Shown: piece after piece, positions 15,096-39,189 of the stretch
Layout: each line of letters starts with the position of its first letter
Numbering within the stretch: the stretch's first letter is position 1
DNA from: a virus
Lineage: Duplodnaviria; Heunggongvirae; Uroviricota; Caudoviricetes
Direction: 5' to 3' (one strand)
DNA: 64,000 nt
Virus record (IMG/VR): IMGVR_UViG_3300012943_000028
Coordinates: 240,642 to 304,641 of that record
The notes under the pieces: generated by a model
The model's database searches: none
Told to the model about the DNA's origin: nothing
The model's input: only the letters and a program-made list of their open reading frames with translations
Translations under genes and position numbers: made by a program

Positions 15096-15721
15096 TGAAA
15101 CTTCATGAGGTTGCTGGTGCAAGCAAGCGCAGCGGAACGCTGTACGTGTTTGACATCGATGATACGCTGTTCCGCACTACGGCGCAGGTACGTGTCATCA
15201 AAGATGGTGAGCCACCAAAAACTCTAACCAGCCAGGAATTCAATGACTACAAGCTCAAACCTGGTGAACGCTTCGACTACGGTGAGTTCGTTGACGCAGA
15301 GAAGTTCAACACAGAGAGCAAGCCGATCCCAAAGATGATTCAGACGCTAGTGCGAGTGCACGACAAGGTCAAGCTGAACCTTACGCCTGGCTCAAAGGTG
15401 ATCATCAGCACCGCACGTGGCATCCTTGACGATCAAGACACCTTCGACGACACGTTCAGGTATCACGGCATCGACATCGACAACATTGAGGCCAACCACG
15501 CCGAGCATGGTAAGGGGTCGTCGCCGGCAGAACGCAAGAACTCTGTTGCTCGACGCTACCTCAGCGCACATGATTACGATGCGTGCTACATGTACGACGA
15601 CAGCAAGACCAACCTTACGTACTTTCTACAGCTGAAGCACGAATTTCCTGAGGTAGATTTCAGGGCCTTCATCATTAATGATGAAGGCGAGATGCATCAG
15701 TTTACCGCTGAAGCTCGCTGA
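15095..15721 (+). CDS. HAD-superfamily hydrolase (phosphatase)
   Basis: YVFDIDDTLF matches HAD motif I (DxDxT). Confidence 0.65.
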   Translation: MKLHEVAGASKRSGTLYVFDIDDTLFRTTAQVRVIKDGEPPKTLTSQEFNDYKLKPGERFDYGEFVDAEKFNTESKPIPKMIQTLVRVHDKVKLNLTPGSKVIISTARGILDDQDTFDDTFRYHGIDIDNIEANHAEHGKGSSPAERKNSVARRYLSAHDYDACYMYDDSKTNLTYFLQLKHEFPEVDFRAFIINDEGEMHQFTAEAR

Positions 15722-16505
15722 GCAACGGTTCAACCTTCTGCCAAAACGCATCGGCCACCTGAGAGTGGAACTCTGGGCCACGATGGTGGCCATCTCTTGC
15801 GCACGTTTCCTTGTGGTGTTTTGGAAAATCTACCCACTCTATCTGAGGAAATTTTTCCTTCAACACTTCCATGTTGTCAACGGCCGTTGAAAGCGTCTTT
15901 GCTCCCCACAGCTCACACACGGTGCTCATCAACCGCATGCTTCTGATGGATTGGTTGGTGAAGAAGTACCGATCAGTAAAGACTGGCATGAGTGTCTCGT
16001 TGATCACGGCCGGGTAGTTTGATAGATCATTCGGTGAGAAGTGAAATTCTCTGCTTGCCTTGAATGAGAAGTCTCTCCAGAAGAAGGCAGGAAGCCAGCT
16101 CAGCACAAGCTTTGGGCGCATCTTAAGGTGAGTGTGAGCATAGTAGATTTCAGATGCCACTGTGTCCACAGAAGCGCCAGACACAGATAGGTTCCAGTAC
16201 GGAATCTTCTTACCTGTCGCAGCCCTGATCCTTTCAAGCAGCACGTAAGCCCACACCTTCTCAAGTGGGAGGCCTACACCTTCAGTGTGGCTGCAACCAA
16301 CGAAGATGATTGGCAGCTCAGATGGGTCGGTGAACTCATCACAGCGTAGGCCTTCACTGTTAAAGTTGTAAGTGATATCGCCTGGCTTGAATTGATTTGG
16401 ACCGTAGAAGGTCTCTTCCTTGTAGTTTTCAAGCGTGTCAAGGCTGTGCCATTCCGTGGTGCACGCTTTTTGCTTCGTGAACCAGAACAGCGGATGCACG
16501 TTCAT
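15702..16505 (-). CDS. SGNH/GDSL-like hydrolase paralog 1
   Basis: IIFVGCSHTEGVG resembles SGNH block I with Ser retained. Strong similarity to the partial plus-strand ORF at 63654-64000 (RAATGKKIP(Y/F)WN). Confidence 0.55.
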   Translation of the reverse strand: MNVHPLFWFTKQKACTTEWHSLDTLENYKEETFYGPNQFKPGDITYNFNSEGLRCDEFTDPSELPIIFVGCSHTEGVGLPLEKVWAYVLLERIRAATGKKIPYWNLSVSGASVDTVASEIYYAHTHLKMRPKLVLSWLPAFFWRDFSFKASREFHFSPNDLSNYPAVINETLMPVFTDRYFFTNQSIRSMRLMSTVCELWGAKTLSTAVDNMEVLKEKFPQIEWVDFPKHHKETCARDGHHRGPEFHSQVADAFWQKVEPLLSELQR

Positions 16506-17047
16506 TAGTAGTCTCGTGGATCGCCAGGAACGACAGCATCAAGCTTACGCTTGATTTCCTGCCAGAGGATTGGAGCGTAGCCCTGCGCATCAACGCCAAC
16601 GTCTAGGCGCCTACGTGTTGGGTCGAATGGAATCGTGTTGTGGCAGTGACCATGTAGATTGTACGAGCCACGGTGTGCCTTATGCCACGTAAGAAGTGGG
16701 TAATGGCACATCGCAACATAGGTGCCTTCGATCGTCTCATGCCAGAGGTCTGGGTAGATTTTCTCGAAGAGGTCTTGTAGCGGCTTCTGGTTACGGATCA
16801 GCTTGTCGTGGTTGCCAAGGATCAGGCGCTTCTTGCCATTCAGGCGGTGCATGATCTGCTTTGCCTCATTAACTTGGCAGAAGAACACGTCACCCAGAAT
16901 GTAGATGATGTCGTCGTACCGGACTCGTGCGTTCCAGTTCTCGATCAACCCTTCATTCATCTCCTGAGCGGAGGCATACGGTCGATCGCAGTATTTGATG
17001 ATGTTTTCGTGTCCGAAATGAAGGTCGGACGTAAAGTAGATGTTCAT
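16505..17047 (-). CDS. calcineurin-like metallophosphoesterase
   Basis: MNIYFTSDLHFGH...GDVF...GNHD metallophosphatase motifs. ORF trimmed to the internal Met. Confidence 0.7.
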   Translation of the reverse strand: MNIYFTSDLHFGHENIIKYCDRPYASAQEMNEGLIENWNARVRYDDIIYILGDVFFCQVNEAKQIMHRLNGKKRLILGNHDKLIRNQKPLQDLFEKIYPDLWHETIEGTYVAMCHYPLLTWHKAHRGSYNLHGHCHNTIPFDPTRRRLDVGVDAQGYAPILWQEIKRKLDAVVPGDPRDY

Positions 17048-17057
17048 ACGCAGGTAT

Positions 17058-17834
17058 TTACGAGTCTCTACCGTAGTACCTTGGTGATCCACGTTGTTCT
17101 GGTGATGCTGGTGGCGTGTAGATTTTATGTTCAAGCTCAAAGCATTTTTCAAAGTCTGCAATTGGATCAAGGTGCTGCGTTTCAGGTCTGAGAATAGCGT
17201 ACATGCCAACAGTCGCAACACCTATGTTTATTCCACGCTCCATCAAGAATTTGCCAAGCCCGAGATTTGGATTCTTGAGATGGTCCTTCAGCGACCAAAA
17301 GTATTGAGTTGCGGTGTCCATGATCTGCGCAGGCGCAGCCCAAAATACATCGTCCATGACCATCGCCTCTGGCGGCCGCCACTCACCATTTTCCATGATG
17401 AAAGCGTTTTCGTTCATCGCCTGCTCGACAATGGTGGATAGGAGCTTATATCTTGGGAAGATGATATCAGGCCGCATCTTGACAACAGCATCATACTTCA
17501 CGTTGTTCGATGTCTCGTACTGACGCCTAAACTCTACGCTCTTCATCCAAGAGTAGTAGAGCGCAATCGGTGCGTTCATGCTGCCATGCATGTTTAGAGC
17601 CCTAGCGTTTTCGGCAATGAACACCTTTGGCTTAAGTAGTTCAACGTACCGTGAAATAATTGCAGTAGGCACGACCTCCTCATCTACATCCGACAACGCA
17701 TATCGCCTGTTCGTGTTTGTTGTCCACGTATGAACGAAAAAGTCGATGTCCATATCACCGAAGAACAGCTGCTGGTTTTCTAGCGCCTTCAGGCAGGTAC
17801 GAAGCTGGCCGCTAAAGCAAACTGCGACCTTCAT
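17058..17834 (-). CDS. CxSGQxRT-family protein paralog 1 (unassigned family; possible glycosyltransferase)
   Basis: N-terminal MKVAVCFSGQLRT...FFVHTW; the same architecture as 24848..25642 and 25629..26393. Confidence 0.5.
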   Translation of the reverse strand: MKVAVCFSGQLRTCLKALENQQLFFGDMDIDFFVHTWTTNTNRRYALSDVDEEVVPTAIISRYVELLKPKVFIAENARALNMHGSMNAPIALYYSWMKSVEFRRQYETSNNVKYDAVVKMRPDIIFPRYKLLSTIVEQAMNENAFIMENGEWRPPEAMVMDDVFWAAPAQIMDTATQYFWSLKDHLKNPNLGLGKFLMERGINIGVATVGMYAILRPETQHLDPIADFEKCFELEHKIYTPPASPEQRGSPRYYGRDS

Positions 17835-18841
17835 ACCGTATAGCGATCAAGAAGCTGGAACACGCGCCTCTCTACGTGTTCCTGAAAGTCCTCATGGTCG
17901 TTGATCTTCTCAACGAGGCTTAGGTATTCAGGGTCAGTGAAGTGATAGTGCCCAGCGCAGATCAGCTTGTCGTATGTAGAGAAGGCAGGACCATATTCCC
18001 ACTTCTTCCATTTGCCTGAAGCGGCAACGTGGTCCGTGAAAGCATTCAACCCATCAACAAATCCACAGCGCATTGCTAGATCAACAAGCACCTGAGTCTG
18101 GGCGGCACCGAACTCTGGAGCTACATTGATAGCGTGAACACCAATCGTCTTTCTGTGCTGTACCTCCGCATCACTAATGTAATCAGCGTTGTGCTCCTTT
18201 AGCTTCACCCCATATTTCTCAGCGATGCTGACGAGCTGCTTGACAACCTCTGGGCTAAATGAACCGACCTGCTGGTGGCTCTTTACGAGTGATCCAGTCT
18301 GACCAACAACGTAGCGTGGCATTAGAACGCCTGGATACAGAGATGTGATGAAGCGTACGTCGCTTTCAAACTTTTCAACGCTGACAGCCGTTCCAATGTT
18401 CTCTTCGGTGCCAAACTCATACTCAAGCCACTTTGAACTGAGCATTGAAAGGGAGAACAGCTCTTCGGCGGCTGCATATGGGTCGGGTGCAGCAGATGTA
18501 TCAATGTGAATCAGGTCCATCGCATACATGTCGGTGCTGAGGCTTTGTTTAGTGCGCTCCATCGCCTCCTTGTATGACATGCCCTTTTCTATGTCGTTAA
18601 GGAATGGGCCACAGTGATCACGACACAGCATCACGTGTCCGTCTGGGTCTCTCTCACGAACGTATTGGGCGAAAGTTCTGGTATTGAAGGCACCAACATA
18701 ACCACCACCAAGCTCTGCGCACTCTATCTGGTTGCGTGATGCGATCAGCATGAGCTGGATATTTTTGTGGCGCGCATATTTGATCACAGCGTCGATGATC
18801 TCAACGCTCATTGGTCCTACGCCAACTTCTAGCTTTTTCAT
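17831..18841 (-). CDS. GatZ/KbaZ-family protein (tagatose-bisphosphate aldolase accessory / tagatose-6-phosphate kinase family)
   Basis: ASRNQIECAELGGGYVGAFNTRTFAQYV and CRDHCGPF parallel the GatZ [24 protein letters not shown] and GGDHLGPN regions. Confidence 0.7.
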   Translation of the reverse strand: MKKLEVGVGPMSVEIIDAVIKYARHKNIQLMLIASRNQIECAELGGGYVGAFNTRTFAQYVRERDPDGHVMLCRDHCGPFLNDIEKGMSYKEAMERTKQSLSTDMYAMDLIHIDTSAAPDPYAAAEELFSLSMLSSKWLEYEFGTEENIGTAVSVEKFESDVRFITSLYPGVLMPRYVVGQTGSLVKSHQQVGSFSPEVVKQLVSIAEKYGVKLKEHNADYISDAEVQHRKTIGVHAINVAPEFGAAQTQVLVDLAMRCGFVDGLNAFTDHVAASGKWKKWEYGPAFSTYDKLICAGHYHFTDPEYLSLVEKINDHEDFQEHVERRVFQLLDRYTV

Positions 18842-19299
18842 TCGAGAATCCCCTTGAGGTAGAGGCATGCATCAAGCACTGCACCTTGTCCAGCCTTCGA
18901 CGTAGTAACGAAGTCACTTGCCCAACGTGCCTCCTGTCTTGCAGAGACCGGGCAGATACCAAGAGCAACTGCCTCAAGAACAGGTGCATCGTAGTAGCCA
19001 TCGCCCATGTAGGCAACGCTGTCGAGGCCCAGTCCAGCAACAAAGCCGAGCCTGTCCTGTTCAGATACAAGCGACAGCTTGAAACCGAGGTCGTCCTCAA
19101 TGCGGCGCTTCGTGATCTCAAAACCACGGTGGTCGGCTGTGATGAACTGGATGTTGATCATGTCCTTGATCATCTTTAGACCGTCAGCATCGTGCGGGCC
19201 AAATACCTTGGCCACCTTACCTTCAGCCGTGTAGACGAACGTGCCATCAGTCATGACACCGTCGACGTCAAGGACGAAGTGCTTGAGCTTGTCTTTCAT
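18838..19299 (-). CDS. HAD phosphatase of the KdsC/NeuAc-9-P phosphatase subfamily
   Basis: FVLDVDGVMTDG motif and ~150 aa size match KdsC-type sugar-acid phosphate phosphatases. Confidence 0.7.
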   Translation of the reverse strand: MKDKLKHFVLDVDGVMTDGTFVYTAEGKVAKVFGPHDADGLKMIKDMINIQFITADHRGFEITKRRIEDDLGFKLSLVSEQDRLGFVAGLGLDSVAYMGDGYYDAPVLEAVALGICPVSARQEARWASDFVTTSKAGQGAVLDACLYLKGILE

Positions 19300-20092
19300 T
19301 GAAGGCCTCTGTCATTGCATTTACCGGTGCTGGTGTGCCGGTGTAAAGTCCAAATTGTTCCATGGCACCGTACAGCGCCATGATTGAGCCGTTGAAAGCA
19401 GGTATCCCAAGCTTTCTTGCAGTAATCACCGTAGGGGAATCATTCACTCCGAGATCGAGAAGCTTGTGCGTTCTCAGCAGCTCGATACCAAGCAGCTCAC
19501 CATTCATACCAACTGGGGTGCAGTTGATCATGGTGCCGTAGATGTCTTCTGCCCAAAGTTCATCGTGAGTTTCCCTGTTCCACTTTTCCTCAATGAAGGA
19601 ATCTTTGGATGGGTCTTTGATTCTACCTCGCACCCACACAGAAACATCGCTGTAAGCGCTAAGGCACTCGAGCACCGCCCTAGCCGCACCACCAGAACCG
19701 AAGACGTGTATCTTGTCGCCAAGCTTGACGTCAGCTACATCGAGCAGTTTTGAAAATCCAATCAGGTCAGTGTTGTAGCCGTAGAGCTTGCCATTTCGAT
19801 TGACGACTGTATTTACCGCCCCAATTTTGACAGCTGAATCATCAATCCAATCGAGGTAGTCTAGGACCTCAACCTTGAATGGCATTGAGATGCTGGCACC
19901 ACGAATGTCGAAGGTCTTCATCTGCAGCATGGCGCGCTTGATGTTGTCTTCTGAGCAGGCAAGGTACTTGAAGTCTAGACCACGTGCCTTGTAGCCGGCA
20001 CTATGGACCGTCATTCCTAGATTTCCAGGGTTCGAGCTCAGTGAAATACAGAGCTCAGATTTCCCAGCCATTTTAACTGCTTCAAGCAAGTT
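19268..20092 (-). CDS. shikimate/quinate dehydrogenase-like oxidoreductase (AroE fold)
   Basis: ISMPFKVEV...GAVNTVV...GYNTDLIGF parallels the AroE motifs (NVTvPfK, avNT, GyNTDg.G); Rossmann GSGGAARA. Confidence 0.6.
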   Translation of the reverse strand, partial: NLLEAVKMAGKSELCISLSSNPGNLGMTVHSAGYKARGLDFKYLACSEDNIKRAMLQMKTFDIRGASISMPFKVEVLDYLDWIDDSAVKIGAVNTVVNRNGKLYGYNTDLIGFSKLLDVADVKLGDKIHVFGSGGAARAVLECLSAYSDVSVWVRGRIKDPSKDSFIEEKWNRETHDELWAEDIYGTMINCTPVGMNGELLGIELLRTHKLLDLGVNDSPTVITARKLGIPAFNGSIMALYGAMEQFGLYTGTPAPVNAMTEAFNERQAQALRP

Positions 20093-21596
20093 CATTGAGT
20101 CTCTCCAGTGCCAAGCTGAAAAGCAGCTTGTCAAATGGGGCAGCGTGCAGTGGCGCCATGTTTAGGAAGATGATGGTAGTAATCTGATCAATGAGTGGGC
20201 TAGGGAAACGCTGTCTAAGGCTCGCGGCCAGCTCATCATGATGGCGGCTGTGGTAAAAGTTGAACCATACGCTGTCACCGTTCTCATCGAACATGAAGCG
20301 GTTCTGCTTGACTGTTGAGTAGTCAAGTATGATTCCACCTAGAAGCTTTGCGGCGTCATAGTACAGGTCTCCAACGAGTAGCTCACCAGCAAAGTCCTGT
20401 CGCCAGTCGAGCAGCGTAAATGAAGGGCCCTGCGTATCCGGGAATGAGCACACAATGTTGTCGAACTGTAGATCACCATGGATGAAGGTCGAGCGCTGTT
20501 CGAGGTCGCTGTTGCAGATGCTCTTCCAATCTATCAGCTGAAGCGCGTTGTCAATGTCAACCTTCATTCGGTTTCCATTGATGAACTTTGGGTTGAAGTT
20601 TGGGTATTTCTCCCTGAACATCGCTAGGCGCTTCATCGTCTTCGTGTGATAGAAGTCGGTGCAGTGGGAGGCAGCTAACTGCCGTCCGAGGTTGTGCCAT
20701 ACGCGAAAGTCTAGGAACGCTAGCAGCTCATCAAAGATGTGAGCGTCAATAATTGGGTAGAGCGTCTGACCAGAAACGAACTTGTAAGTGTAGAAGCGTT
20801 CCTTATGCTTCACGATCTTTGGGAAGATGCCTGGAGAGTATGCGGCTCTACGCACACGATCTTCTGCGATCTCGTGGTTCTTGAACCACTTAATGACGTT
20901 GTCACCAACTATCCACAAGAACTCATCTGTCTTTGAGAAGTCGTATGGAGAGTTCTGAAGGTAAAAGCGCTGGTACTTTTCAAACGTGCCGAGGTCTACC
21001 CACTTGAGCGGGAACCCATGAACGTCAAGCCCTGACCATCCAGATGAGAGCTCTACATCACCAAGGTTGGCCCAAAACTGGTCCGTGTCTTTGATGTAGA
21101 AGGCACCATTGACGGCGAGACCTGAATCACAGTAGCGCTTGTCAACGATCTTCGTAATCCGGCCGTCGTACATCTCAACGTTGCAGTATGCTGGTGAGTC
21201 TGCTACGTCGACGTTGGATACACCAACGTAGTTCTTATCCGTTGGGATATCGTTAAGCCCTTCGTAGTAGGCATCGCAGGCGATCAGATAGAATGGTCCG
21301 CTGATCACACGATGACAGCGACGAAGGGAATGAGCTGGTCCAGAGTTTGGACCATCGTAGTTGTTGACCAACACGAATGAGAACTTCGTGTTCGGATGTG
21401 CGAGCTCTAGATACGTTCTAACGTCTTGACTGAGGAACCCAAGCGCAACCACGAACTGCGTTGAGCTGTCAAACTGCTCAATGATGTGAGAGATGATTGC
21501 CTTGTCGTTGACAGGAAGCAGTGTCTTGTTGATGACGCCAGCATACTTGCCCATGCGGCTGCCAATACCAGCGGTAAGAAGAACGACGGTCTTCAT
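20082..21596 (-). CDS. bifunctional sugar-phosphate nucleotidyltransferase / APH-family kinase
   Basis: N-terminal VLLTAGIGSRMG nucleotidyltransferase signature. C-terminal IHGDLQFDNIV is the HGDxxxxN motif of aminoglycoside/choline/sugar kinases. The layout resembles LicC-LicA or HddC-HddA type sugar-activation pairs. Confidence 0.75.
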   Translation of the reverse strand: MKTVVLLTAGIGSRMGKYAGVINKTLLPVNDKAIISHIIEQFDSSTQFVVALGFLSQDVRTYLELAHPNTKFSFVLVNNYDGPNSGPAHSLRRCHRVISGPFYLIACDAYYEGLNDIPTDKNYVGVSNVDVADSPAYCNVEMYDGRITKIVDKRYCDSGLAVNGAFYIKDTDQFWANLGDVELSSGWSGLDVHGFPLKWVDLGTFEKYQRFYLQNSPYDFSKTDEFLWIVGDNVIKWFKNHEIAEDRVRRAAYSPGIFPKIVKHKERFYTYKFVSGQTLYPIIDAHIFDELLAFLDFRVWHNLGRQLAASHCTDFYHTKTMKRLAMFREKYPNFNPKFINGNRMKVDIDNALQLIDWKSICNSDLEQRSTFIHGDLQFDNIVCSFPDTQGPSFTLLDWRQDFAGELLVGDLYYDAAKLLGGIILDYSTVKQNRFMFDENGDSVWFNFYHSRHHDELAASLRQRFPSPLIDQITTIIFLNMAPLHAAPFDKLLFSLALERLNELA

Positions 21597-22288
21597 TTGT
21601 GCTCGCTTTCAATCCTACCATTTCCACGGTTAGCATCGTCCTGAACACGAATGACATCATCAAGGTGCGGTGTCGACACCTCAAAGAGGTGGAGGTCAGT
21701 GTTAGCACGAAGACGGTGAATCGTGTTTGGCGTAACGTGCAGACAGACAGGACCATTGAAGCTGCTTTCACCGAGGTCTGCCTTGGTTACAGCATCGTTC
21801 TGTGCTTCACGGTTTGCCTTGAACACGAGCGTAACGTTGCCGCTCTCAATAAGGTTTGTCTCTTCCTTGAAGTTGTGGTACTGAAGGCTCGTCTGATTTC
21901 CAGCCTTGATGAAGATCTTCTTTGCACAGTACCTGTCATTGTCTTTAGTCAACCACAGCTCATAGCCCCAAGGCTTCACAACTTTGTAGTGAACACCAGC
22001 TCTGGTTATGGTGAGGTAGTTGAGCGGCGCATCGTGTGATGCTACCTGAGCAACGTATATTTGGCCGTTACCAATGAGAAGCACCTCACGGTTCTTGACG
22101 TCGATCGTATCACCAGCCTCTACCTTCAATTTGTCAGAGGCTATTGTAAATGAGCCGCTGATGACGTAGATCGTGCGCTCTACTTCACCAGCAAAATACA
22201 CCTCATCCTTCACGTTTGACGAGTAGAAGAGATACGCGCCGTTCGCATACACGTGATCGGCCGTTGTTGGTTGGAGTATCTTGATCAT
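21593..22288 (-). CDS. cupin-domain protein (phosphosugar isomerase-like)
   Basis: VVKPWGYELWL and a second cupin-like beta-barrel core (bicupin). Confidence 0.6.
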   Translation of the reverse strand: MIKILQPTTADHVYANGAYLFYSSNVKDEVYFAGEVERTIYVISGSFTIASDKLKVEAGDTIDVKNREVLLIGNGQIYVAQVASHDAPLNYLTITRAGVHYKVVKPWGYELWLTKDNDRYCAKKIFIKAGNQTSLQYHNFKEETNLIESGNVTLVFKANREAQNDAVTKADLGESSFNGPVCLHVTPNTIHRLRANTDLHLFEVSTPHLDDVIRVQDDANRGNGRIESEHK

Positions 22289-22369
22289 TTGTAGATGTAC
22301 GGGTCTCGTTTACGAATCTCTTTCATCTTCTTCCAGTATCGAATCTTCGAGCGGATTCGATAGATGATG

Positions 22370-23164
22370 TCACGGAAGAACTGCATGATCGTCTCCTAAA
22401 ATACCACGTGCCTTGAGTTCCTGCACCATGTGATCCGCCCATGCAACATGTGTGCTTGGTGTAGGGTGAATGCACTTGGTCAGTTCCAGCTTGTTGTCAT
22501 ACACCCACTTCATGCATGACTCGTTGAGGTTCATGATGCTAGTGTCGATGAGCTCTGGCAGCATGTGAGCGAGAGCCGGCTTGTATTCACCTTTCTTGTA
22601 CACAGCAAGCGATTCCAAGTTTGGAAGCGCCGAGAAGAACAGGAACTTTACACCCTGCGTTCTCAGGAAGGACTTGAGCATCACAACCTGCTTGAGAAAG
22701 GTGTCCATCGCCGAATAGAACTCGTACACTTCAGCCACAAACATCTGGTGATATTTATCGAGCTGGCGGGCCTTCTCTTCAGTCATTGAATAGCCAGAGC
22801 CGCTGTAGAAGCCGCTGTACATAGAAAATGGCTGTGCTGCGTTGAATCTGAACCAACGATCTGATGGGTCGGCGGCCTTGCGCTCGAAACCCTCGACGTA
22901 AATTTCACCACGCTCAATCGTTGACCAGCCAATGATGACCAGGAGGTTCTTCCTTTCCTCTGGCGGAAGGTTGAGCACGTAGTCGATCGTCATTCTGTAC
23001 ATGCGCGCATTGCTGCCGCCGCCCGCTGCCTGGTTGACATGTGTGATGTTTAGCTTACGAGCTAGAACGGTTGGCCAGCAATGGTCGCGAACCTTACCAC
23101 CCCATGCGGCTGTGCCATCACCGTTCGCCCAGCTGCATCCGTTTGTGTAGAGCTTGTTGATCAT
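22370..23164 (-). CDS. SGNH/GDSL-like hydrolase paralog 2
   Basis: LYTNGCSWANGDG N-terminal block I-like motif; similar to 23949..24848. Confidence 0.5.
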   Translation of the reverse strand: MINKLYTNGCSWANGDGTAAWGGKVRDHCWPTVLARKLNITHVNQAAGGGSNARMYRMTIDYVLNLPPEERKNLLVIIGWSTIERGEIYVEGFERKAADPSDRWFRFNAAQPFSMYSGFYSGSGYSMTEEKARQLDKYHQMFVAEVYEFYSAMDTFLKQVVMLKSFLRTQGVKFLFFSALPNLESLAVYKKGEYKPALAHMLPELIDTSIMNLNESCMKWVYDNKLELTKCIHPTPSTHVAWADHMVQELKARGILGDDHAVLP

Positions 23165-23952
23165 TTGACTAGCTTCCTGTAGAGCTCTTCAGCAACAATC
23201 GCGTGCGCTTCTTCAGATGCGTGCATGCTGCCGATCTTGTCTGGATATTTCTGTGAGAGGCCGAACCAGTTCATTGAGTGAATCTCATCAGCCGGCACGA
23301 GGTCAAGCAGCAGTGGATCATTAGAAAGAATGACGCACTTGATGCCACGCTTCTTTGCGTAGAGGTATGACTTGAGTAGCACACCAACGTCGTAGTTGCG
23401 CTTGATGTCACCGTTTAGAATTTCGACGTAGTACTGACACATGCGCTTGAGCTTCTCAATCGGCTCAGTGTGTAGGCGCTTATAGTAGTGAATGGCGCCC
23501 TGCACATTGGAGCTCTTTTCTCTCTCACGCACCTTGATGTAGTCATCGATACCACCTACCTGTTCCGTGAGGAGACAAGGATCATACTCGCTCTTGTTCA
23601 GGAAGTGATGGTCGAATGGGTTCTTGTTTGCCTCTGGATTGTGGTGTGGTGGGTAGAGATGGTAGTTGATGTGCCGTGCCTCAAGTGGGAATCGCTGTGT
23701 CTTACCCTCCTCGATCCACTCAATACGGTCATAGCTCGTGGTGCCGATGACGATGAGGTCGGGTTTTGGGTCCATCCTTGCAGCGTACTCTACTTGAAGG
23801 TGGACGGCAAAGTTGCTTGCGCTTCCTCTTGCGAGCGTTACGAGCTCTGCTCCGAGCTTCTGCGCAAGCAGCACACCGTACGGCTGTGTCTGAAGGTCCA
23901 GCACGCCGATGCCACAGTTGAAGCTGTCACCGCATACGACTATCTTCTTCAC
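23161..23952 (-). CDS. SGNH/GDSL-like hydrolase paralog 3
   Basis: IVVCGDSFNCGIGV contains the GDS(F) block I motif. Confidence 0.55.
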   Translation of the reverse strand: MKKIVVCGDSFNCGIGVLDLQTQPYGVLLAQKLGAELVTLARGSASNFAVHLQVEYAARMDPKPDLIVIGTTSYDRIEWIEEGKTQRFPLEARHINYHLYPPHHNPEANKNPFDHHFLNKSEYDPCLLTEQVGGIDDYIKVREREKSSNVQGAIHYYKRLHTEPIEKLKRMCQYYVEILNGDIKRNYDVGVLLKSYLYAKKRGIKCVILSNDPLLLDLVPADEIHSMNWFGLSQKYPDKIGSMHASEEAHAIVAEELYRKLVK

Positions 23953-24848
23953 TTGAACTTCCTCTCATAGAGATGGTTTGCCCAAGCCTCGTGGCTCTCA
24001 GGGCTTGGGTGCATGTTGATCATTCGAATTGGCTTAGGCACGTTCTCATCGATGAACGACTTGAAGGACCTGAAGTCCAGCTTGTCCAAGAACACATCAT
24101 CTGGAATGCTCTTCCACTGTGCACGAATCCTGTTGATGTCTTGACGGTTGTTCCATGCGCCATCAAGCCAACCATCGAATGGTTCTGCGTGCCAATTGTT
24201 GATCACCAACGAGAGATCACATGGTCTCCAATCATTGAGCGGTGACAGCTTGCCTTTCGGCATGTTTGGAACATAGAAGGAGTTGAAGAAGACGTGCTGG
24301 ATGGCGTTGCTCTTGAGGTAGGTGTGCAGCTGGAAATTCTGCTCAACGAAGCGAGTGATGGCCTCACGCTCATTCCACAGGTGCTGGATGTAGAACTTTG
24401 AGAAGCGCTTCATGACGTCAAGCTTGTAGTACTCATCTTGGATCATGGCTGGCCAGATGGTGTACTGATGAAGCTTGTCGTCAAACCCTTCTATTAGAAT
24501 GTTCTTTCGCTCAAGGCTCGACCAACCAACCACAACAACAAGCTCTGCCGGATCACCACCCTCTGACAGGTACTTCATCACCCAACCCATCGTGCTGTTG
24601 AAGATGGTGTCATTGCTCCTTGCGGGCCAGCTAATGTTGACTGACTTGTAACCGAGCTTGTTCGCAAGGTGCGTGGACCAAATCCTTGGCACTCGGTAGT
24701 AATCATTGTGCGGCTGACAGTCAAGCATGCCCGCCTTGAAGTTCTGAGTCATGCCTTCGCCCTTCTCTCCAGCAGGCACGAGCATGTGCGGGCCAGCTAT
24801 CTCGCTGCCAAATGCCCAGCTATCTCCATTTGTCAAGAGCGTCTTCAT
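23949..24848 (-). CDS. SGNH/GDSL-like hydrolase paralog 4
   Basis: LLTNGDSWAFGSE GDS motif; TAATG coupling to the upstream gene. Confidence 0.6.
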   Translation of the reverse strand: MKTLLTNGDSWAFGSEIAGPHMLVPAGEKGEGMTQNFKAGMLDCQPHNDYYRVPRIWSTHLANKLGYKSVNISWPARSNDTIFNSTMGWVMKYLSEGGDPAELVVVVGWSSLERKNILIEGFDDKLHQYTIWPAMIQDEYYKLDVMKRFSKFYIQHLWNEREAITRFVEQNFQLHTYLKSNAIQHVFFNSFYVPNMPKGKLSPLNDWRPCDLSLVINNWHAEPFDGWLDGAWNNRQDINRIRAQWKSIPDDVFLDKLDFRSFKSFIDENVPKPIRMINMHPSPESHEAWANHLYERKFK

Positions 24849-25642
24849 TAGAAATTCCTATATGCGTCTCTAAGGGCTTCATGGTCTAACGGCCAGTTGA
24901 GGTGCTCTGTACCCAGTCGAACTACAAAAGGTCCGATGTTGCGTGGTATGTCAACCATCTTGATGCACTTGTCGTTGACCCACTTGTACAGCATTACACC
25001 TACACCATAACGATCTAGCGTTGGGTTTCTTGTGCTGTTGTAGTTGTGTAAAGCATGGAAACGACGGTTGCTGTAGTAGTGCCAAAACCCATCAATCATC
25101 GTCATCACACGACTGCTACCATAGTAGAAGATGTCATCGATGCATGGCTGTCGATATTCAAACGCAAACGAATTGCGTGAACAGTAAACGGTGTCTGGCT
25201 CGATGACGTCAGGTATCGTGAGATCAACGTATGCGTGAGGTGAACACGCAAAGTCAAAGCGCACATGGTAGACCATGTCGAATGACCTACCAGTTTCGAT
25301 CTCGTACTGTGTCTTGAGGTGCATTGACTTGGCGCTGCTTTTGAGCATCGCTGACCACGGAAGAACCTTTCCACCATTGATGAACTGGTGTATCTGCTCA
25401 TCTATTATGAGGCGCTCAAAATTGAATGCAGCCTGCAGCTCTTCACGAAGTGTTTCTACACAGAGCTTTTCAGTAGTTCCAGGATGATCACTGCTAGCCC
25501 GCCAGGTATTTTCGTCCCACGTATGGCCAAAGAACTTCACATCAGCCTTAAGACTGTTGAAGAAGCGCTTGATAGCCGGTAGAGCCGTCTTCCACGTACG
25601 GCTCTGTCCGCTCATGCACACTGCGATGCTATACTGTTTCAT
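24848..25642 (-). CDS. CxSGQxRT-family protein paralog 2
   Basis: Internal start MKQYSIAVCMSGQSRT...FFGHTW aligns with the other two paralogs. The ORF-track N-terminal extension overlaps the upstream paralog. Confidence 0.5.
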   Translation of the reverse strand: MKQYSIAVCMSGQSRTWKTALPAIKRFFNSLKADVKFFGHTWDENTWRASSDHPGTTEKLCVETLREELQAAFNFERLIIDEQIHQFINGGKVLPWSAMLKSSAKSMHLKTQYEIETGRSFDMVYHVRFDFACSPHAYVDLTIPDVIEPDTVYCSRNSFAFEYRQPCIDDIFYYGSSRVMTMIDGFWHYYSNRRFHALHNYNSTRNPTLDRYGVGVMLYKWVNDKCIKMVDIPRNIGPFVVRLGTEHLNWPLDHEALRDAYRNF

Positions 25643-26393
25643 ACTGCTCCAGCTTTCCAGCTCGTGCAAGATGCTCAGCATCACGCATGATCTTGAAGTC
25701 AATGTGTGGTAGCGGAACATTGTCTACGCCGATTGAAGCGCAGTAGTAGAAGAGCGCAAGCTCTGGTGGAAAGATTGGCTCACTAGGCATCACAGACAGC
25801 GCGTCGATATACCTAAAGCTGTCATAGAACATGGCGATGTGGTCATACGTCAGGCTGTCCGACATGAAGAAGATGTCACCAATGCGCATCACGCCATTCG
25901 TTGCATCGATGGAATTGTGAACAGAATGGATAGTCGATGGCAGCATAGTGTCTGCACGCACTGGTGATGTGAACCCACCAGAAAAGAAAAGGTCGGACCG
26001 CAGTCTGACAACAACATCATACTCGAAGTCGTTTTCCATCTCGTGCTCGCGCTTCAGCGTGGCTGCACGCCACAGGCTGTAGAACTGCTCATGAGCAAAC
26101 CATGAGACGACGTTTGTTGGGCCAGTCTGCGAGACGTCCTTCTTGCTCTCGAACAAGAACTTCTTCGGCTTCAAGGTGCTGACGATGCGAGCCTTCTCAT
26201 CTTCAGACAGCGGAATTTCCTTAGGCCTACCGTCTATGAACTCAGCCCTTAGCTGAGGATGACTGTTGTAATCCCACAGGTGGAAGAACAGGTCAACCTC
26301 GCCCATGTTTCCTAGGGCTTGATACCATGAGGCATAGCACTTTTCCCAAGTGCGGGCTTGACCACTGAGGCAGAAGGCGATTCTTGAAGTCAT
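25629..26393 (-). CDS. CxSGQxRT-family protein paralog 3
   Basis: MTSRIAFCLSGQART...LFFHLWD; shared YD.VV..R.D..F central block. Confidence 0.5.
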   Translation of the reverse strand: MTSRIAFCLSGQARTWEKCYASWYQALGNMGEVDLFFHLWDYNSHPQLRAEFIDGRPKEIPLSEDEKARIVSTLKPKKFLFESKKDVSQTGPTNVVSWFAHEQFYSLWRAATLKREHEMENDFEYDVVVRLRSDLFFSGGFTSPVRADTMLPSTIHSVHNSIDATNGVMRIGDIFFMSDSLTYDHIAMFYDSFRYIDALSVMPSEPIFPPELALFYYCASIGVDNVPLPHIDFKIMRDAEHLARAGKLEQYETV

Positions 26394-34069: not shown

Positions 34070-34756
34070 TCACCAATCTTCAACTCCAAACAGGTATCCC
34101 TTCTCACGAACGACCTCAACGTCAGCCAAGATCTGAACGAGGTTCTGCGCAGGGTCAACATCACCCTTCAGCGTGCGGTCCCACACACACTTGTAGTGCC
34201 ACTGAGTTTCAGGACCGAGCATGCTCACGAAGCGGTTGTTGTAGTTGCGAACTACGCTGAGCACTGTGTCAGTGTGCTCACCTTGGAGAGTGGTGCTGTT
34301 GAGAAGCTCCATCTGCTTGATGGCCTTCAAAACGTCCGCCTCATAGCGCTTCTTGAAGCGTTCAATGCGAACTTCCTGTGGAACATCGACGAAGTACTTC
34401 AGCCACAGCGCACCAACGTCCAGCGCTGGCTTTGCGTAGTGCTCGATTCCTTCTGGCTCGACAACCAAGAACGCAAGACCCATGTCTAGCTTCTTCTTGA
34501 ACTCTTCCTTGGTAACGCCGTAGCGGAATCCACGGAAGGTCATGAGCTCGGCGAAGCCATCTGCTGCCTCAATCGCTCTCGACTCCTCATCGCTGATGAA
34601 GAAGTAGTCTACGCCGTCTACCTCACCATCACGCTTTGGGCGGGTGGTGGTTGAGACGAAACATGGAAGCTTTGCCACATCTCGAATGTAGCTGAGGAGA
34701 TAGCTCTTACCTGAGCAGGTAGGAGATGTGAAGGTGATCAGGACGGGCTTTGACAT
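34070..34756 (-). CDS. guanylate-kinase-like nucleoside monophosphate kinase
   Basis: [11 protein letters not shown] P-loop and [21 protein letters not shown] mirror the Gmk GPSGAGKST and [21 protein letters not shown] motifs. Confidence 0.7.
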   Translation of the reverse strand: [228 protein letters not shown]

Positions 34757-35238
34757 AGCTTTGGCGTCTTCTTGATGAGCAGCGCTACGACCTGGTCGTG
34801 CAAGCGCTGCGTGGACATGACTCTCTTCTCGAACTCTTCTGGGGTCAGCGATACAACCGTCGTCGGCCCCATGTTGATCCAGTCGAACTTGCCATCCTTA
34901 CCCTCAACGACGGTCGTGTAGTGTGCGTCATGCTCGTTGATAGAGTGGTAGAGGATGAAAGCACCACCTGAGCTGACATGCTTCTTGAGCTGGTCGAGGT
35001 GGACTACTGGGATGGCCTTCGTCTTCAGCCGACCTCGGCTCATCCTGTTGAGGGCACGCCGAAGGTCCCACTGGTGGGTACCAGAGAAGTCCTCGTCATG
35101 CTTGTAGCGAGCCATATTCTTTATGTACTCGATGGACGAATCGTACGTCGCCCTGAGCCCAGCCCACTTGAGGATGTTCAGGATGGCAACAGGCCCACAG
35201 TCACTCTGCGTTCTTTGTCTTGTGTAGCGGGGCTTCAT
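34738..35238 (-). CDS. papain-like cysteine peptidase (C39-like) candidate
   Basis: QSDCGPVAILNILKWAG resembles the C39 QxxxxDCGxAxL catalytic Cys region; downstream HYTTVV fits the His motif. Confidence 0.5.
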   Translation of the reverse strand: MKPRYTRQRTQSDCGPVAILNILKWAGLRATYDSSIEYIKNMARYKHDEDFSGTHQWDLRRALNRMSRGRLKTKAIPVVHLDQLKKHVSSGGAFILYHSINEHDAHYTTVVEGKDGKFDWINMGPTTVVSLTPEEFEKRVMSTQRLHDQVVALLIKKTPKLCQSPS

Positions 35239-37885: not shown

Positions 37886-37937
37886 GTGTTCTCCAAAATC
37901 CGGGGTCGGGCGTATTTACCGTGCCTTCGACCGCACT

Positions 37938-39054: not shown

Positions 39055-39189
39055 TTCATTTCCTCAGGTGTGACCAAATAAGAACAGTCGCTGCGATGAT
39101 CGCCGCTACAGTTCTGATGATGCTCATGATGAACTCCGCTTTCTTGCGGCGTTCCTTGAATTCTGGTTGCTCCATCGTATCACCAACCT

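What the first reader, a model, noticed from the sequence alone, without database searches (positions are those of the whole stretch)
15702..26393. 11-kb glycan / sugar-nucleotide island with an unusual enzyme combination
One strand carries a gene run with no described pathway match as a set. In order: an SGNH-like hydrolase; a metallophosphoesterase; a CxSGQxRT-family protein; a GatZ/KbaZ-family protein; a KdsC-type HAD phosphatase; an AroE-fold NAD(P) oxidoreductase; a nucleotidyltransferase fused to an APH-type kinase (sugar-1-kinase plus NDP-sugar pyrophosphorylase logic, like LicA/LicC or HddA/HddC); a bicupin isomerase-like protein; three more SGNH-like hydrolases; and two more CxSGQxRT proteins. 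The kinase-nucleotidyltransferase, phosphatase, cupin and dehydrogenase together look like a route to an activated unusual sugar, possibly a keto-deoxy or sugar-acid type given the KdsC and GatZ relatives. The paralog families look like transferases and esterases that decorate an acceptor. Elsewhere the genome encodes a DNA glycosyltransferase-like protein and Glf, so the acceptor could be hydroxymethylated DNA. It could equally be virion proteins or host surface glycans.
Basis: partly seen in the sequence, partly recalled or inferred. Interest (0 to 1): 0.8.

Follow-up and report, generated by a model that had tools for sequence, protein, structure and literature searches.

The report
Jumbo-phage sugar-activation and glycan-decoration island
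A giant phage carries an 11-kb gene block that most likely makes an unusual activated sugar through a widespread, uncharacterised five-enzyme route and attaches and tailors it with virus-enriched transferases and esterases, but the target molecule is unknown and is probably not the phage DNA.

Summary
Thirteen co-directional minus-strand genes (15702-26393) have the predicted identities, and two unknown families were resolved by structure prediction. CxSGQxRT (DUF7796) is a GT-A-fold glycosyltransferase. DUF6071 is an SGNH/GDSL-fold enzyme.

The centre is a five-gene operon: cupin isomerase, nucleotidyltransferase/anomeric-kinase fusion, shikimate-dehydrogenase-like reductase, KdsC-like phosphatase, GatZ-like zinc enzyme. 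It recurs as a unit in at least 225 bacterial and archaeal species genomes and 272 viral contigs. No curated family names it, and no paper in the searched library describes it. Its logic matches ADP/GDP-heptose synthesis and the phage UDP-arabinose route AfhE/AfhF. The fusion is a remote homologue of an uncharacterised AfhE-like protein in a syntenic Morganella phage cluster.

The GT-A and SGNH paralogs are virus-enriched partners, and all 13 products are soluble. The island fills a variable, low-GC slot of a ~358-kb phage.

The phage does encode a T4 gp42-type dCMP hydroxymethylase. That gene belongs to a separate module (34-45 kb) with its own candidate transferase and Glf. None of 80 viral loci carrying the core has a gp42-type hydroxymethylase, the Tmk-like kinase or the candidate DNA transferase nearby. 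The DNA-acceptor reading is therefore possible but disfavoured. A virion protein or another cytoplasmic acceptor is more likely. The sugar is unidentified. Verdict: new variant of a known kind.

The parts
15702..16505 (-). g01, SGNH-like paralog a (267 aa; block I 'VGCSHTEG', C-terminal 'DGHH'); lies downstream of the backbone phosphoesterase
   Evidence: Weak Lipase_GDSL match, E 0.008. Sequence motifs seen directly. No homologue at this position in L003.
16505..17047 (-). g02, calcineurin-type metallophosphoesterase; a conserved backbone gene rather than island cargo. The longest ORF runs to 17221, but the likely start is the ATG at 17047.
   Evidence: phrog_547 at 2.6e-58. 67% identical in relative L017, where the island is absent.
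17058..17834 (-). g03, DUF7796 / CxSGQxRT paralog a; GT-A-fold glycosyltransferase candidate
17831..18868 (-). g04, GatZ/KbaZ-like zinc-dependent TIM-barrel enzyme; predicted ketose-phosphate C4 epimerase or aldolase
   Evidence: Pfam GatZ_KbaZ-like at 7.9e-6. D87, H88, E171 and H257 of E. coli GatZ are invariant; C20, E44 and K279 are not kept. Residue roles come from PMC11907403.
18838..19299 (-). g05, KdsC/YrbI-type HAD phosphatase (motif I 'DVDGVMTDG'); predicted to remove the distal phosphate
   Evidence: TIGR01670 at 9.6e-17, KdsC at 1.6e-15, KDN-9-P phosphatase at 1.1e-14; all below the curated cut-offs.
19268..20134 (-). g06, shikimate-dehydrogenase-fold NAD(P) oxidoreductase; not AroE. 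The likely start is at 20071 or 20095.
   Evidence: NF009202 at 6.7e-45. Best solved relative is SdhL HI0607; 5-ketofructose reductase is also in the list. K65, N86 and D102 are 100% conserved in 70 relatives, while S14, S16 and Y215 are replaced.
20082..21596 (-). g07, fusion of a sugar-1-phosphate nucleotidyltransferase (N-terminal) and an APH-fold kinase (C-terminal)
   Evidence: Pfam NTP_transf_3 plus APH. The GxGxR...K and HGDxxxxN/D motifs are invariant. hhalign probability 97.4% over 465 columns to the AfhE-like gp39 of Morganella phage Rgz1. At least 739 homologues.
21593..22288 (-). g08, PMI-type cupin ('SLQYHNFKEE...H'); predicted aldose-ketose isomerase of a sugar phosphate
   Evidence: MannoseP_isomer at 1.9e-6. 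GMP_PMI at 2e-7. Fused to the NT-kinase in P0093. Adjacent in 64 of 80 viral and 59 of 80 genome loci.
22370..23164 (-). g09, DUF6071; SGNH/GDSL-fold esterase or acyltransferase, paralog b
23161..23952 (-). g10, GDSL-like SGNH paralog c
   Evidence: Lipase_GDSL at 0.0015 over the full profile. Aligns with g09 and g11.
23949..24848 (-). g11, DUF6071 SGNH paralog d
   Evidence: Pfam DUF6071 at 4.8e-17. Alignment.
24848..25642 (-). g12, DUF7796 GT-A paralog b. The longest ORF runs to 25720; the likely start is M27 at 25642.
   Evidence: phrog_13607. Alignment A1.
25629..26393 (-). g13, DUF7796 GT-A paralog c
   Evidence: DUF7796 at 2.7e-4. phrog_13607 at 6e-14. Alignment A1.
34070..45229 (-). Context, not part of the island: a separate predicted DNA-modification module. 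It holds a gp42-type dCMP hydroxymethylase (44486-45229), a Tmk-like kinase (38446-39054), a 389-aa candidate furanosyl transferase (36716-37885), Glf (35500-36534) and a guanylate kinase (34070-34756).

Best explanation
The block is a horizontally mobile glycosylation module sitting in a variable slot of a ~358-kb jumbo myovirus. It has two layers.

(1) A five-gene sugar-nucleotide operon, in the order cupin, NT/kinase, SDH-like, KdsC-like, GatZ-like. Inferred route:
- A central ketose phosphate (fructose-6-P or sedoheptulose-7-P) is epimerised at C4, or assembled, by the GatZ-like zinc enzyme.
- The PMI-type cupin converts it to an aldose phosphate.
- The APH-fold domain phosphorylates the anomeric carbon, giving a 1,n-bisphosphate.
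- The KdsC-like HAD removes the distal phosphate.
- The N-terminal domain of the same fusion couples the sugar-1-phosphate to an NTP.
- The SDH-like enzyme, which is dispensable in many relatives, adds one NAD(P)-dependent redox change.
The product is an NDP-activated rare hexose or heptose of unknown identity.

(2) Three GT-A-fold DUF7796 paralogs and four SGNH-fold paralogs, all soluble and without signal peptides. They would transfer the sugar(s) and add or remove O-acyl groups on an acceptor available in the infected cell's cytoplasm.

Shown: gene identities, folds, catalytic residues, operon conservation, virus-enrichment of the decorating enzymes, and the variable-slot position. Inferred: reaction order, substrate and acceptor. 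I favour virion protein(s) as the acceptor, by analogy with chlorovirus and mycobacteriophage virion glycosylation, over DNA or host lipid-linked glycans.
For: - Identities and motifs.
- Folds: GT-A and SGNH.
- Core operon conserved as a unit. In 80 viral loci (of 272 found): GatZ-like 72, cupin 64, KdsC-like 43, SDH-like 24, usually in the window's gene order. In 80 genome loci (of 225 species found): 61, 59, 49 and 46.
- Natural fusions link the NT-kinase to the cupin (P0093) and to a GT2 (P0047).
- The fusion is a full-length remote homologue (hhalign 97.4%) of Morganella phage Rgz1 gp39, an uncharacterised AfhE-like protein in a cluster syntenic to RB69's arabinosylation cluster. HY126 AfhE itself has a demonstrated mechanism: sugar-5-P to 1,5-bisP, then phosphatase, then UDP-sugar (PMC13326640).
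- GatZ/KbaZ are F6P/T6P 4-epimerases (PMC11907403).
- DUF7796 and SGNH partners are virus-enriched: about 15 and about 6-10 of 80 viral loci, against 3 and 0 of 80 cellular loci.
- The same composition (several GT-A, several SGNH, plus the core) recurs in a distant 385-kb phage contig, L068, with only 33% fusion identity, and in L083, L088 and L096.
- No transmembrane segment or signal peptide in any of the 13 proteins.
- No flippase, polymerase or priming transferase in the island.
- Variable slot: relative L017 has only the fusion at this locus. Low GC and GC3.
- Viral neighbours of the core are NDP-sugar tailoring enzymes, not nucleotide-metabolism genes.
Against: - No enzyme here or in the cassette has been assayed. 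The sugar, the nucleotide and the reaction order are inferred.
- All matches to named enzymes fall below the curated NCBIfam cut-offs.
- The GatZ-like protein lacks three of the signature residues of true GatZ, so C4 epimerisation of F6P is only one option.
- Nothing in the sequence identifies the acceptor. The virion-protein preference is by exclusion and analogy.
- The phage has hmC machinery, and scattered DNA glycosyltransferases are known in RL38J1, so a DNA acceptor is not excluded.
- In some T4-like marine contigs the core lies beside the DNA polymerase gene. In T-even phages that is where DNA-modification genes sit.
Confidence: 0.5

Rival explanations
1. DNA hypermodification. The island makes the donor sugar and its GT-A/SGNH enzymes add and acylate it on 5-hydroxymethylcytosine in phage DNA, or on a first furanose already placed there by the 389-aa transferase. 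This would diversify the DNA glycan against restriction, GmrSD-type or CRISPR defences.
For: - The phage encodes a gp42-type dCMP hydroxymethylase: 51% identical to T4 gp42, with C146 and D169 kept and N177D.
- It also encodes a Tmk-like kinase and a candidate transferase paired with Glf.
- The island's isomerase, NT/kinase fusion and HAD phosphatase mirror the characterised phage UDP-arabinose route for DNA arabinosylation, and the fusion is a remote homologue of an uncharacterised AfhE-like protein, Rgz1 gp39.
- DNA glycosyltransferases can be scattered around a genome, as in RL38J1.
- All island enzymes are cytoplasmic.
- A variable, HGT-prone island fits arms-race diversification.
- The core sits beside DNA polymerase B in some marine myovirus contigs.
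Against: - The DNA module is self-contained and about 8 kb away. In a relative, the candidate transferase's slot next to the Tmk-like kinase carries a T4-type beta-glucosyltransferase, while the island locus there holds only the fusion.
- None of 80 viral loci with the core has a hydroxymethylase, the Tmk-like kinase or the 389-aa transferase within 10 kb. The one TS found nearby is an ordinary ThyA.
- DNA glycosyltransferases of T4, RB69, DLP3 and RL38J1 have their top structural hits to sucrose-phosphate-synthase/BshA/PimA-type enzymes, which I recognise as GT-B fold. DUF7796 is GT-A.
- Among isolates, DUF7796 occurs only in Synechococcus cyanomyoviruses beside ordinary GTs. From general knowledge, these phages lack gene 42.
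- No O-acylated DNA sugar is known.
- The same core in bacteria and archaea sits in cell-surface glycan loci.
Confidence: 0.2
2. Host-envelope remodelling. The island's product is added to host lipid-linked LPS, capsule or teichoic-type intermediates on the cytoplasmic face. This would change the cell surface during infection, for example to exclude superinfecting phages.
For: - In bacteria the five-gene core lies next to GT1/GT2/GT4 transferases, CDP-alcohol phosphatidyltransferase and phosphonate genes, i.e. envelope-glycan loci.
- Depositors annotate the cyanophage DUF7796 neighbourhood as capsular-polysaccharide genes.
- The SGNH structural matches include carbohydrate esterases and peptidoglycan O-acetyltransferases.
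Against: - The island has no priming phosphoglycosyl transferase, flippase, polymerase or membrane protein.
- Envelope O-acetyl SGNH enzymes normally act outside the cytoplasm and carry signal peptides or membrane partners. These four have the catalytic Ser within the first ~12 residues (g09-g11) and no signal peptide.
- The decorating families are nearly absent from cellular copies of the cassette: 3 and 0 of 80.
Confidence: 0.2
3. A non-glycan role. The genes are an auxiliary catabolic or central-carbon module (tagatose/galactitol-type sugar use), or they make a soluble NDP-sugar-like signalling or inhibitory metabolite with no transfer to a macromolecule.
For: - GatZ/KbaZ and cupin isomerases are classically catabolic.
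- Relative L017 keeps only the NT/kinase fusion, which hints at a stand-alone activity.
Against: - A nucleotidyltransferase domain with intact GxGxR/K motifs is fused to the kinase.
- Three GT-A paralogs lie in the same co-directional gene run.
- There are fusions to GT2.
- Neighbours in viruses and cells are glycan-building enzymes.
Confidence: 0.05

Closest known systems
Phage UDP-arabinofuranose route for DNA arabinosylation (arabinose-5-P isomerase + AfhE bifunctional kinase/pyrophosphorylase + AfhF HAD phosphatase; phages HY126, RB69, DLP3)
   Same: - Phage-encoded.
- Sugar-phosphate isomerase, then anomeric kinase giving a bisphosphate, then HAD removal of the distal phosphate, then nucleotidyl transfer.
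- Kinase and nucleotidyltransferase are one polypeptide with the NT domain N-terminal and an APH-like kinase C-terminal.
- hhalign probability 97.4% (E 1.4e-11, 465 columns) to the uncharacterised AfhE-like gp39 of Morganella phage Rgz1, which sits in a cluster syntenic to RB69's.
   Different: - Only about 22% identity; no BLAST-level match to RB69.
- The isomerase is a cupin, not SIS.
- The phosphatase is KdsC-type, not the 1xpj-type HAD.
- There are two extra enzymes (GatZ-like, SDH-like).
- The transferases are GT-A DUF7796, not the sucrose-phosphate-synthase/BshA-type (GT-B) enzymes of those clusters.
- The island is not adjacent to the TS homologue or the nucleotide kinase.
- The acceptor is unknown.
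ADP-/GDP-D-glycero-D-manno-heptose synthesis (GmhA, HldE or HddA+HddC, GmhB, HldD)
   Same: - Ketose-phosphate isomerase, then 1-kinase, then distal HAD phosphatase, then nucleotidyltransferase.
- HldE is likewise a kinase/nucleotidyltransferase fusion (established knowledge).
- The best solved relative of the NT domain is a putative 6-deoxy-D-mannoheptose pathway protein (5xhw; HddC by my recollection).
   Different: Every step uses a different fold: cupin for SIS, APH for PfkB/GHMP, KdsC-type for GmhB-type HAD, SDH fold for SDR. The GatZ-like enzyme has no counterpart.
GatZ/KbaZ fructose-6-P / tagatose-6-P 4-epimerases
   Same: TIM-barrel class II aldolase relatives. The catalytic Asp and the His/Glu/His metal ligands (D87, H88, E171, H257) are invariant in the island family.
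   Different: - About 18-22% identity, and about 80 residues shorter.
- C20, E44 and K279 are not conserved.
- Pfam score is just under the gathering threshold, and the NCBIfam equivalog cut-offs are missed by far.
- The context is biosynthetic, not catabolic.
Type II phosphomannose isomerase / GDP-mannose pyrophosphorylase (AlgA/ManC/XanB)
   Same: A PMI-type cupin working with a nucleotidyltransferase. Natural fusions of the cupin to the NT-kinase exist.
   Different: Mutase chemistry is replaced by kinase plus phosphatase. The cupin is a separate, longer protein with an extra N-terminal half.
Glycan islands of marine T4-like cyanophages and virion glycosylation systems of chloroviruses and mycobacteriophages
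   Same: - Virus-encoded soluble GT-A enzymes plus sugar-tailoring genes in hypervariable regions.
- DUF7796 homologues lie in such islands.
- PBCV-1 A064R is among the structural matches.
   Different: No acceptor has been shown for the cyanophage islands. The window's combination of multiple SGNH paralogs with this particular five-gene core has not been described.
T4 gp42 / glucosyltransferase hmC system (for the neighbouring module, not the island)
   Same: The TS homologue is 51% identical to gp42 with the same active-site substitutions. A relative carries a PF09198 T4-type glucosyltransferase in the same slot as the window's 389-aa protein.
   Different: The window has a 389-aa protein paired with Glf instead. 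It shows no profile similarity to the T4-type enzyme. The same pair occurs in a cyanophage-family genome with no TS homologue.

Membership tests
SGNH/GDSL hydrolase superfamily (g09, g11 = DUF6071; g10, g01 by alignment) | Flavodoxin-like SGNH fold | tested here: met
SGNH/GDSL hydrolase superfamily | Block I Ser, block II Gly, block III Asn, block V His | tested here: met
   G9, S11, N52 and H233 are invariant in 38 family members. The block V Asp three residues before His is not evident, so a Ser-His dyad is possible.
GT-A-fold nucleotide-sugar glycosyltransferases (g03, g12, g13 = DUF7796) | GT-A Rossmann-like fold | tested here: met
GT-A-fold nucleotide-sugar glycosyltransferases | DxD-type metal/nucleotide-binding motif at the end of beta-4 | tested here: inconclusive
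   Invariant acidic residues D115, D123 (in 'R-x-D') and D162 exist. They were not mapped onto a template's DxD.
GatZ/KbaZ-like family (PF08013) | Pfam gathering score | tested here: not met
   The window protein scores 25.2 bits against a cut-off of 26.7. Bacterial orthologues of the same cassette carry precomputed PF08013 hits.
GatZ/KbaZ-like family (PF08013) | Catalytic Asp plus His/Glu/His metal ligands (D87, H88, E171, H257) | tested here: met
   Invariant in alignment A4. Residue roles are from PMC11907403.
GatZ/KbaZ-like family (PF08013) | Family-specific C20, E44, K279 | tested here: not met
   Replaced by V, I and N in the window protein.
KdsC (Kdo-8-P phosphatase, YrbI subfamily) | NCBIfam curated cut-off | tested here: not met
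   TIGR01670 scores 61.3 bits against 106.95; NF007019 scores 57.2 against 208. HAD motif I DxDGxxTD is present. This is a relative, not an equivalog.
Shikimate dehydrogenase AroE | Catalytic Lys65/Asp102 dyad | tested here: met
   K65, N86 and D102 are 100% conserved in 70 cassette homologues and in the window protein.
Shikimate dehydrogenase AroE | Shikimate carboxylate-binding Ser14, Ser16, Tyr215; curated cut-offs | tested here: not met
   Replaced by N, G and V (family: R/K/N, G, V/I). All NCBIfam scores are below cut-off.
AfhE-type bifunctional sugar-phosphate kinase / NDP-sugar pyrophosphorylase | N-terminal NT domain plus C-terminal APH-like kinase in one chain, with intact motifs | tested here: met
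   Pfam. Invariant G-x-G-x-R...K and H-G-D-x4-N...D. hhalign 97.4% across both domains to Rgz1 gp39, an uncharacterised AfhE-like protein.
AfhE-type bifunctional sugar-phosphate kinase / NDP-sugar pyrophosphorylase | Phosphorylates a sugar omega-phosphate at C1 and uridylylates the 1-phosphate | not testable with these tools
   Needs an enzyme assay.
AfhE-type bifunctional sugar-phosphate kinase / NDP-sugar pyrophosphorylase | Genomic linkage to a TS-homologue/Tmk/DNA-glycosyltransferase cluster | tested here: not met
   The island is 18 kb from the TS homologue. None of 80 viral loci shows a gp42-type hydroxymethylase, the Tmk-like kinase or the 389-aa transferase within 10 kb; one has an ordinary ThyA.
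T4 gp42 dCMP hydroxymethylase (context gene 44486-45229) | Catalytic Cys146; Asn177 to Asp; Asp169 retained (not the D169N of 5-hydroxy-dCMP synthases) | tested here: met
   51% identical to T4 gp42, against 24% to RB69 gp48. The criterion is from PMC13326640.

The most novel reading that the evidence does not exclude
The island is a second-tier DNA-glycan diversification cassette. Its product, a rare hexose or heptose made by a pathway never characterised, is added by GT-A DUF7796 enzymes onto furanosyl-hydroxymethylcytosine and then O-acylated by cytoplasmic SGNH enzymes. That would give an acylated, branched DNA hypermodification of a kind not yet seen.
Probability: 0.12. Interest if true: 0.9.

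Novelty: new variant of a known kind. Interest (0 to 1): 0.55.

Why it matters
- The five-gene operon (cupin, NT/kinase fusion, SDH-like, KdsC-like, GatZ-like) is a widespread sugar-nucleotide pathway that has no curated name and no paper in the library I searched. It was found in at least 225 species genomes, many of them CPR bacteria, DPANN archaea and Bdellovibrionota, and in at least 272 viral contigs. Working it out would name a new activated sugar and annotate hundreds of loci at once.
- DUF7796 and DUF6071 now have fold-level assignments (GT-A, SGNH) and a clear virus bias. That makes them candidate markers of virus-specific glycosylation.
- The same phage appears to combine T4-type hydroxymethylcytosine with a furanosyl-transferase/Glf pair. 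An isolate or a synthetic reconstruction would therefore test both DNA and virion glycosylation in a jumbo phage.

Tried and rejected
- Nucleotide searches of the island and of 25 kb of the window against isolated phages found nothing. A single-sequence pattern scan of IMG/VR also failed until an alignment was used.
- Literature searches returned no description of the cassette. Terms tried: GatZ + shikimate dehydrogenase + nucleotidyltransferase; DUF6071/DUF7796; GatZ + phage.
- The promoter/terminator scan gave no more sites than shuffled sequence.
- Sequence-profile searches of the SGNH-like families against solved structures were only suggestive (E 0.1-0.24 to GDSL proteins). The fold was settled by modelling instead.
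- The idea that the TS homologue makes 5-hydroxy-dCMP, as in RB69, was rejected because D169 is retained.
- The idea that the TS near the core in viral locus L065 links the pathway to DNA modification was rejected. It is an ordinary ThyA.
- The expectation that the 389-aa protein is a T4-type beta-glucosyltransferase relative was not borne out: hhalign probability 0.1% and no solved-structure relative. Its transferase role rests on gene context only. A complete Kyanoviridae genome has the 389-aa/Glf pair but no TS homologue.
- The 363-aa protein that follows the GatZ-like gene in 34 of 80 viral loci has no Pfam match, no solved-structure relative and no relation to DUF7796. It is absent from the window.
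- No organism with a chemically characterised glycan turned up among the cellular carriers, so the sugar could not be inferred from known structures.

Full report
**What is there**

The region 15702-26393 holds thirteen ORFs on the minus strand. Their stops and starts abut or overlap, with one 82-nt gap between the cupin gene and the next gene.

- SGNH-like: g01, g09, g10, g11
- Metallophosphoesterase: g02
- The CxSGQxRT family: g03, g12, g13
- GatZ/KbaZ-like: g04
- KdsC-type HAD: g05
- Shikimate-dehydrogenase fold: g06
- NTP-transferase fused to an APH-type kinase: g07
- PMI-type cupin: g08

Likely true starts are 17047 for g02, 25642 for g12 and 20071 or 20095 for g06. Each lies about 11 nt after the upstream stop (sequence).

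The island is compositionally distinct. Its GC is 0.502 against 0.583 to the left and 0.544 to the right. Its GC3 is 0.53-0.68 against 0.73-0.86 in topoisomerase, helicase, TS and Glf.

**Where the window comes from**

The window is part of a ~358-kb contig (P0001). It encodes topoisomerase II subunits, a tail fibre with an S74 chaperone domain, a helicase, a Ro60/TROVE protein and three tRNAs. Its topoisomerase is 48% identical to those of Ralstonia phage RsoM2USA and Xanthomonas phages BUDD and X1. It is therefore an uncultured jumbo myovirus with no close isolate.

**The two unknown families**

**The core pathway**

The NT/kinase fusion has at least 739 homologues. Its neighbours are strikingly constant.
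- In Thalassomonas viridans: HAD, cupin, fusion, SDH-like, GatZ-like.
- In Roizmanbacteria: HAD, GatZ-like, a 274-aa protein, SnoaL, cupin, fusion, SDH-like, beside glycosyltransferase and phosphonate genes.

A scan of IMG/VR found 272 viral contigs. In the 80 fetched loci, the counts within 10 kb were GatZ-like 72, cupin 64, KdsC-like 43 and SDH-like 24, usually in the window's order: cupin, fusion, (SDH), KdsC, GatZ.

A scan of one genome per species found 225 carriers, mainly Bdellovibrionota, CPR bacteria, DPANN archaea, Planctomycetota, Verrucomicrobiota, a Legionella MAG and SAR86. In the 80 fetched loci the counts were 61, 59, 49 and 46. Many loci are cut by contig ends, so all these counts are lower bounds.

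Natural fusions join the NT-kinase to the cupin (P0093) and to a GT2 domain (P0047).

**Catalytic residues**

- The fusion keeps the G-x-G-x-R...K nucleotidyltransferase signature and the H-G-D-x4-N...D kinase motifs.
- The GatZ-like family keeps D87 and the H88/E171/H257 metal ligands of E. coli GatZ, but not C20, E44 or K279 (residue roles from PMC11907403).
- The SDH-like family keeps K65, N86 and D102 in 70 of 70 members. It has lost the Ser14/Ser16/Tyr215 positions, which in AroE bind the shikimate carboxylate (residue roles are from my knowledge of AroE). 5-ketofructose reductase is in the same structural family, so a sugar substrate is plausible.
- None of the proteins reaches an NCBIfam equivalog cut-off.

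**Mechanism proposed**

The logic is: ketose-phosphate processing, then aldose phosphate, then anomeric phosphorylation, then distal dephosphorylation, then nucleotidyl transfer.

This is the logic of ADP/GDP-heptose synthesis (established knowledge). It is also the logic of the phage UDP-arabinofuranose route. In that route AfhE, a bifunctional NT/APH-like kinase, and AfhF, a HAD phosphatase, act after arabinose-5-P isomerase (PMC13326640).

A profile of the island's fusion family aligns end to end with gp39 of Morganella phage Rgz1: hhalign probability 97.4%, E 1.4e-11, 465 columns. Rgz1 gp39 is itself uncharacterised. It is AfhE-like by its size, annotation and position in a cluster syntenic to RB69's arabinosylation cluster.

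GatZ and KbaZ are fructose-6-P/tagatose-6-P 4-epimerases. One concrete possibility is therefore F6P to T6P, then a talose- or galactose-type 6-phosphate, then the 1,6-bisphosphate, then the 1-phosphate, then the NDP-sugar. A sedoheptulose-7-P start is equally compatible.

The SDH-like step is optional in relatives (24 of 80 viral loci), which suggests it creates a variant sugar. All of this paragraph is inference.

**The decorating enzymes are viral**

DUF7796 occurs in about 15 of 80 viral loci and SGNH-like genes in about 6-10. In cellular loci the counts are 3 and 0 of 80.

The full composition (several GT-A, several SGNH, plus the core) recurs in a 385-kb phage contig whose fusion is only 33% identical (L068). 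It also recurs in L083, L088 and L096. A marine single-cell virus has DUF7796 next to the fusion and the GatZ-like gene, inside a larger sugar island.

Among isolates, DUF7796 is found only in Synechococcus T4-like cyanophages, beside annotated glycosyltransferases. In a 204-kb marine contig it sits among GT11, GT6, GT25, methyltransferase and carbamoyltransferase genes.

None of the 13 island proteins has a hydrophobic segment or a signal peptide. The island has no priming transferase, flippase or polymerase.

**Position in the phage genome**

A 338,660-bp relative has conserved flanks: topoisomerase, an HD protein, the g02 phosphoesterase at 67% identity, and the 26929-27402 homologue. Between them it carries only the fusion gene. 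The locus is therefore a variable slot, and g02 is a backbone gene.

Two other contigs, L003 and L023, carry the whole island at about 60% fusion identity.

**Is DNA the acceptor?**

The window does encode a TS homologue (44486-45229). It is 51% identical to T4 gp42, with C146 and D169 kept and N177D. It is only 24% identical to RB69 gp48, the 5-hydroxy-dCMP synthase that carries D169N (criteria). Hydroxymethylcytosine DNA is therefore likely.

Downstream of the TS homologue lie a helicase, a Tmk-like kinase, a 389-aa protein and Glf. In the relative the order is TS, helicase, Tmk-like kinase, SIR2, then a PF09198 T4-type glucosyltransferase. The 389-aa protein thus occupies the DNA-glucosyltransferase slot.

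Homologues of the 389-aa protein sit in three other contexts:
- beside Glf in Aeromonas phage Aes508;
- beside Glf in Kyanoviridae phage C48C1;
- inside the arabinosylation cluster of Rgz1.

Against a DNA role for this protein, C48C1 has no TS homologue at all. No sequence-profile similarity to the T4-type enzyme was found either.

Whatever the 389-aa protein does, this module is separate from the island. Across 80 viral loci the core pathway never lies within 10 kb of a gp42-type hydroxymethylase, the Tmk-like kinase or the 389-aa family. The single TS nearby is an ordinary ThyA. Typical neighbours are NDP-sugar dehydratases and epimerases, RmlC, DegT aminotransferases, C- and O-methyltransferases, acetyltransferases and SAH hydrolase.

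One point in favour of DNA remains. In some T4-like marine contigs the core lies next to DNA polymerase B. In T-even phages that is where DNA-modification genes sit.

**Verdict**

The island is best described as a mobile, virus-adapted glycosylation module. It is built around an uncharacterised but widespread NDP-sugar pathway whose logic parallels heptose and AfhE/AfhF chemistry.

The acceptor is unresolved. My rough estimates are:
- cytoplasmic non-DNA acceptors, chiefly virion proteins: about 0.4;
- DNA: about 0.2;
- host lipid-linked glycans: about 0.2.

It is a new variant of a known kind rather than a new kind of system. Its value lies in the testable pathway and in the fold assignments for DUF7796 and DUF6071.

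Noticed in passing
window 34070-45229 (minus strand): A separate predicted DNA-modification module: gp42-type dCMP hydroxymethylase (44486-45229; N177D, D169 kept), Tmk-like kinase (38446-39054), 389-aa candidate transferase (36716-37885), UDP-galactopyranose mutase Glf (35500-36534) and guanylate kinase (34070-34756). A related 338-kb phage has a T4-type beta-glucosyltransferase plus SIR2 in the same slot. The window phage may carry galactofuranosyl-hmC DNA.
   Followed up: partly
window 35500-37885; L014 8995-11027; L022 3892-6074: The 389-aa protein and Glf form a conserved gene pair in three phage lineages: this jumbo phage, Kyanoviridae phage C48C1 and Aeromonas Tulanevirus Aes508. C48C1's complete genome has no thymidylate-synthase homologue, so the pair does not always accompany hmC. 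The 389-aa family has no Pfam or solved-structure relative.
   Followed up: partly
L017 10001-11515 (338,660-bp relative): At the island's locus this relative carries only the NT/kinase fusion (50% identical), with no isomerase, phosphatase, GatZ-like or transferase genes. This is either a remnant or a stand-alone activity on host sugar phosphates.
   Followed up: no
L056 13024-14115 and 33 other viral loci: A conserved protein of about 363 aa (invariant N117, D119 and H120 in a 'GNDDH' stretch) directly follows the GatZ-like gene in 34 of 80 viral loci. It has no Pfam, solved-structure or DUF7796 similarity, and it is absent from the window. It may be the dedicated transferase in those phages.
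   Followed up: partly
L106, L112, L118, L119, L128 (bacterial loci): A protein of about 274 aa recurs between the GatZ-like and cupin genes in several bacterial copies of the cassette. It could be a sixth pathway member, and it is absent from the phage island.
   Followed up: no
window 12854-13962 (minus strand): An acyl-carrier-protein-like gene (PP-binding, 6.9e-11) and an HD phosphohydrolase (phrog_990, 1.8e-55) lie about 2 kb left of the island. An ACP near four SGNH-fold enzymes could hint at acyl transfer. The HD gene is backbone (conserved in L017). The ACP had no match in L017's 21.5-kb stretch.
   Followed up: no
window 15095-15721 (plus strand): A 208-aa HAD-like protein with a 'FDIDDTLF' DxDxT motif and a weak polynucleotide-kinase-phosphatase match. 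It converges on the island's last gene, and no homologue was seen in the relative L017.
   Followed up: no
window 27692-28327 (minus strand): An HNH endonuclease lies about 1.3 kb beyond the island's upstream end, with a 37% identical homologue in the relative.
   Followed up: no
window 54627-56390 and 62890-63632: A Ro60/TROVE-vWA protein (PF25045 at 1e-52) and three tRNA genes (Val-GAC, Thr-GGT, Arg-CCG). A Ro60 homologue suggests there may be a Y-RNA-like partner.
   Followed up: no
L001 7704-20167 (Marine virus AG-345-E15): A large sugar island. It holds an APH kinase, a HAD, two SDR dehydratase/epimerases, DUF7796, the NT/kinase fusion, a GatZ-like gene, a 2OG-Fe oxygenase, a GHMP kinase, a cupin and a separate nucleotidyltransferase. 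That amounts to two parallel sugar-activation routes in one virus.
   Followed up: partly
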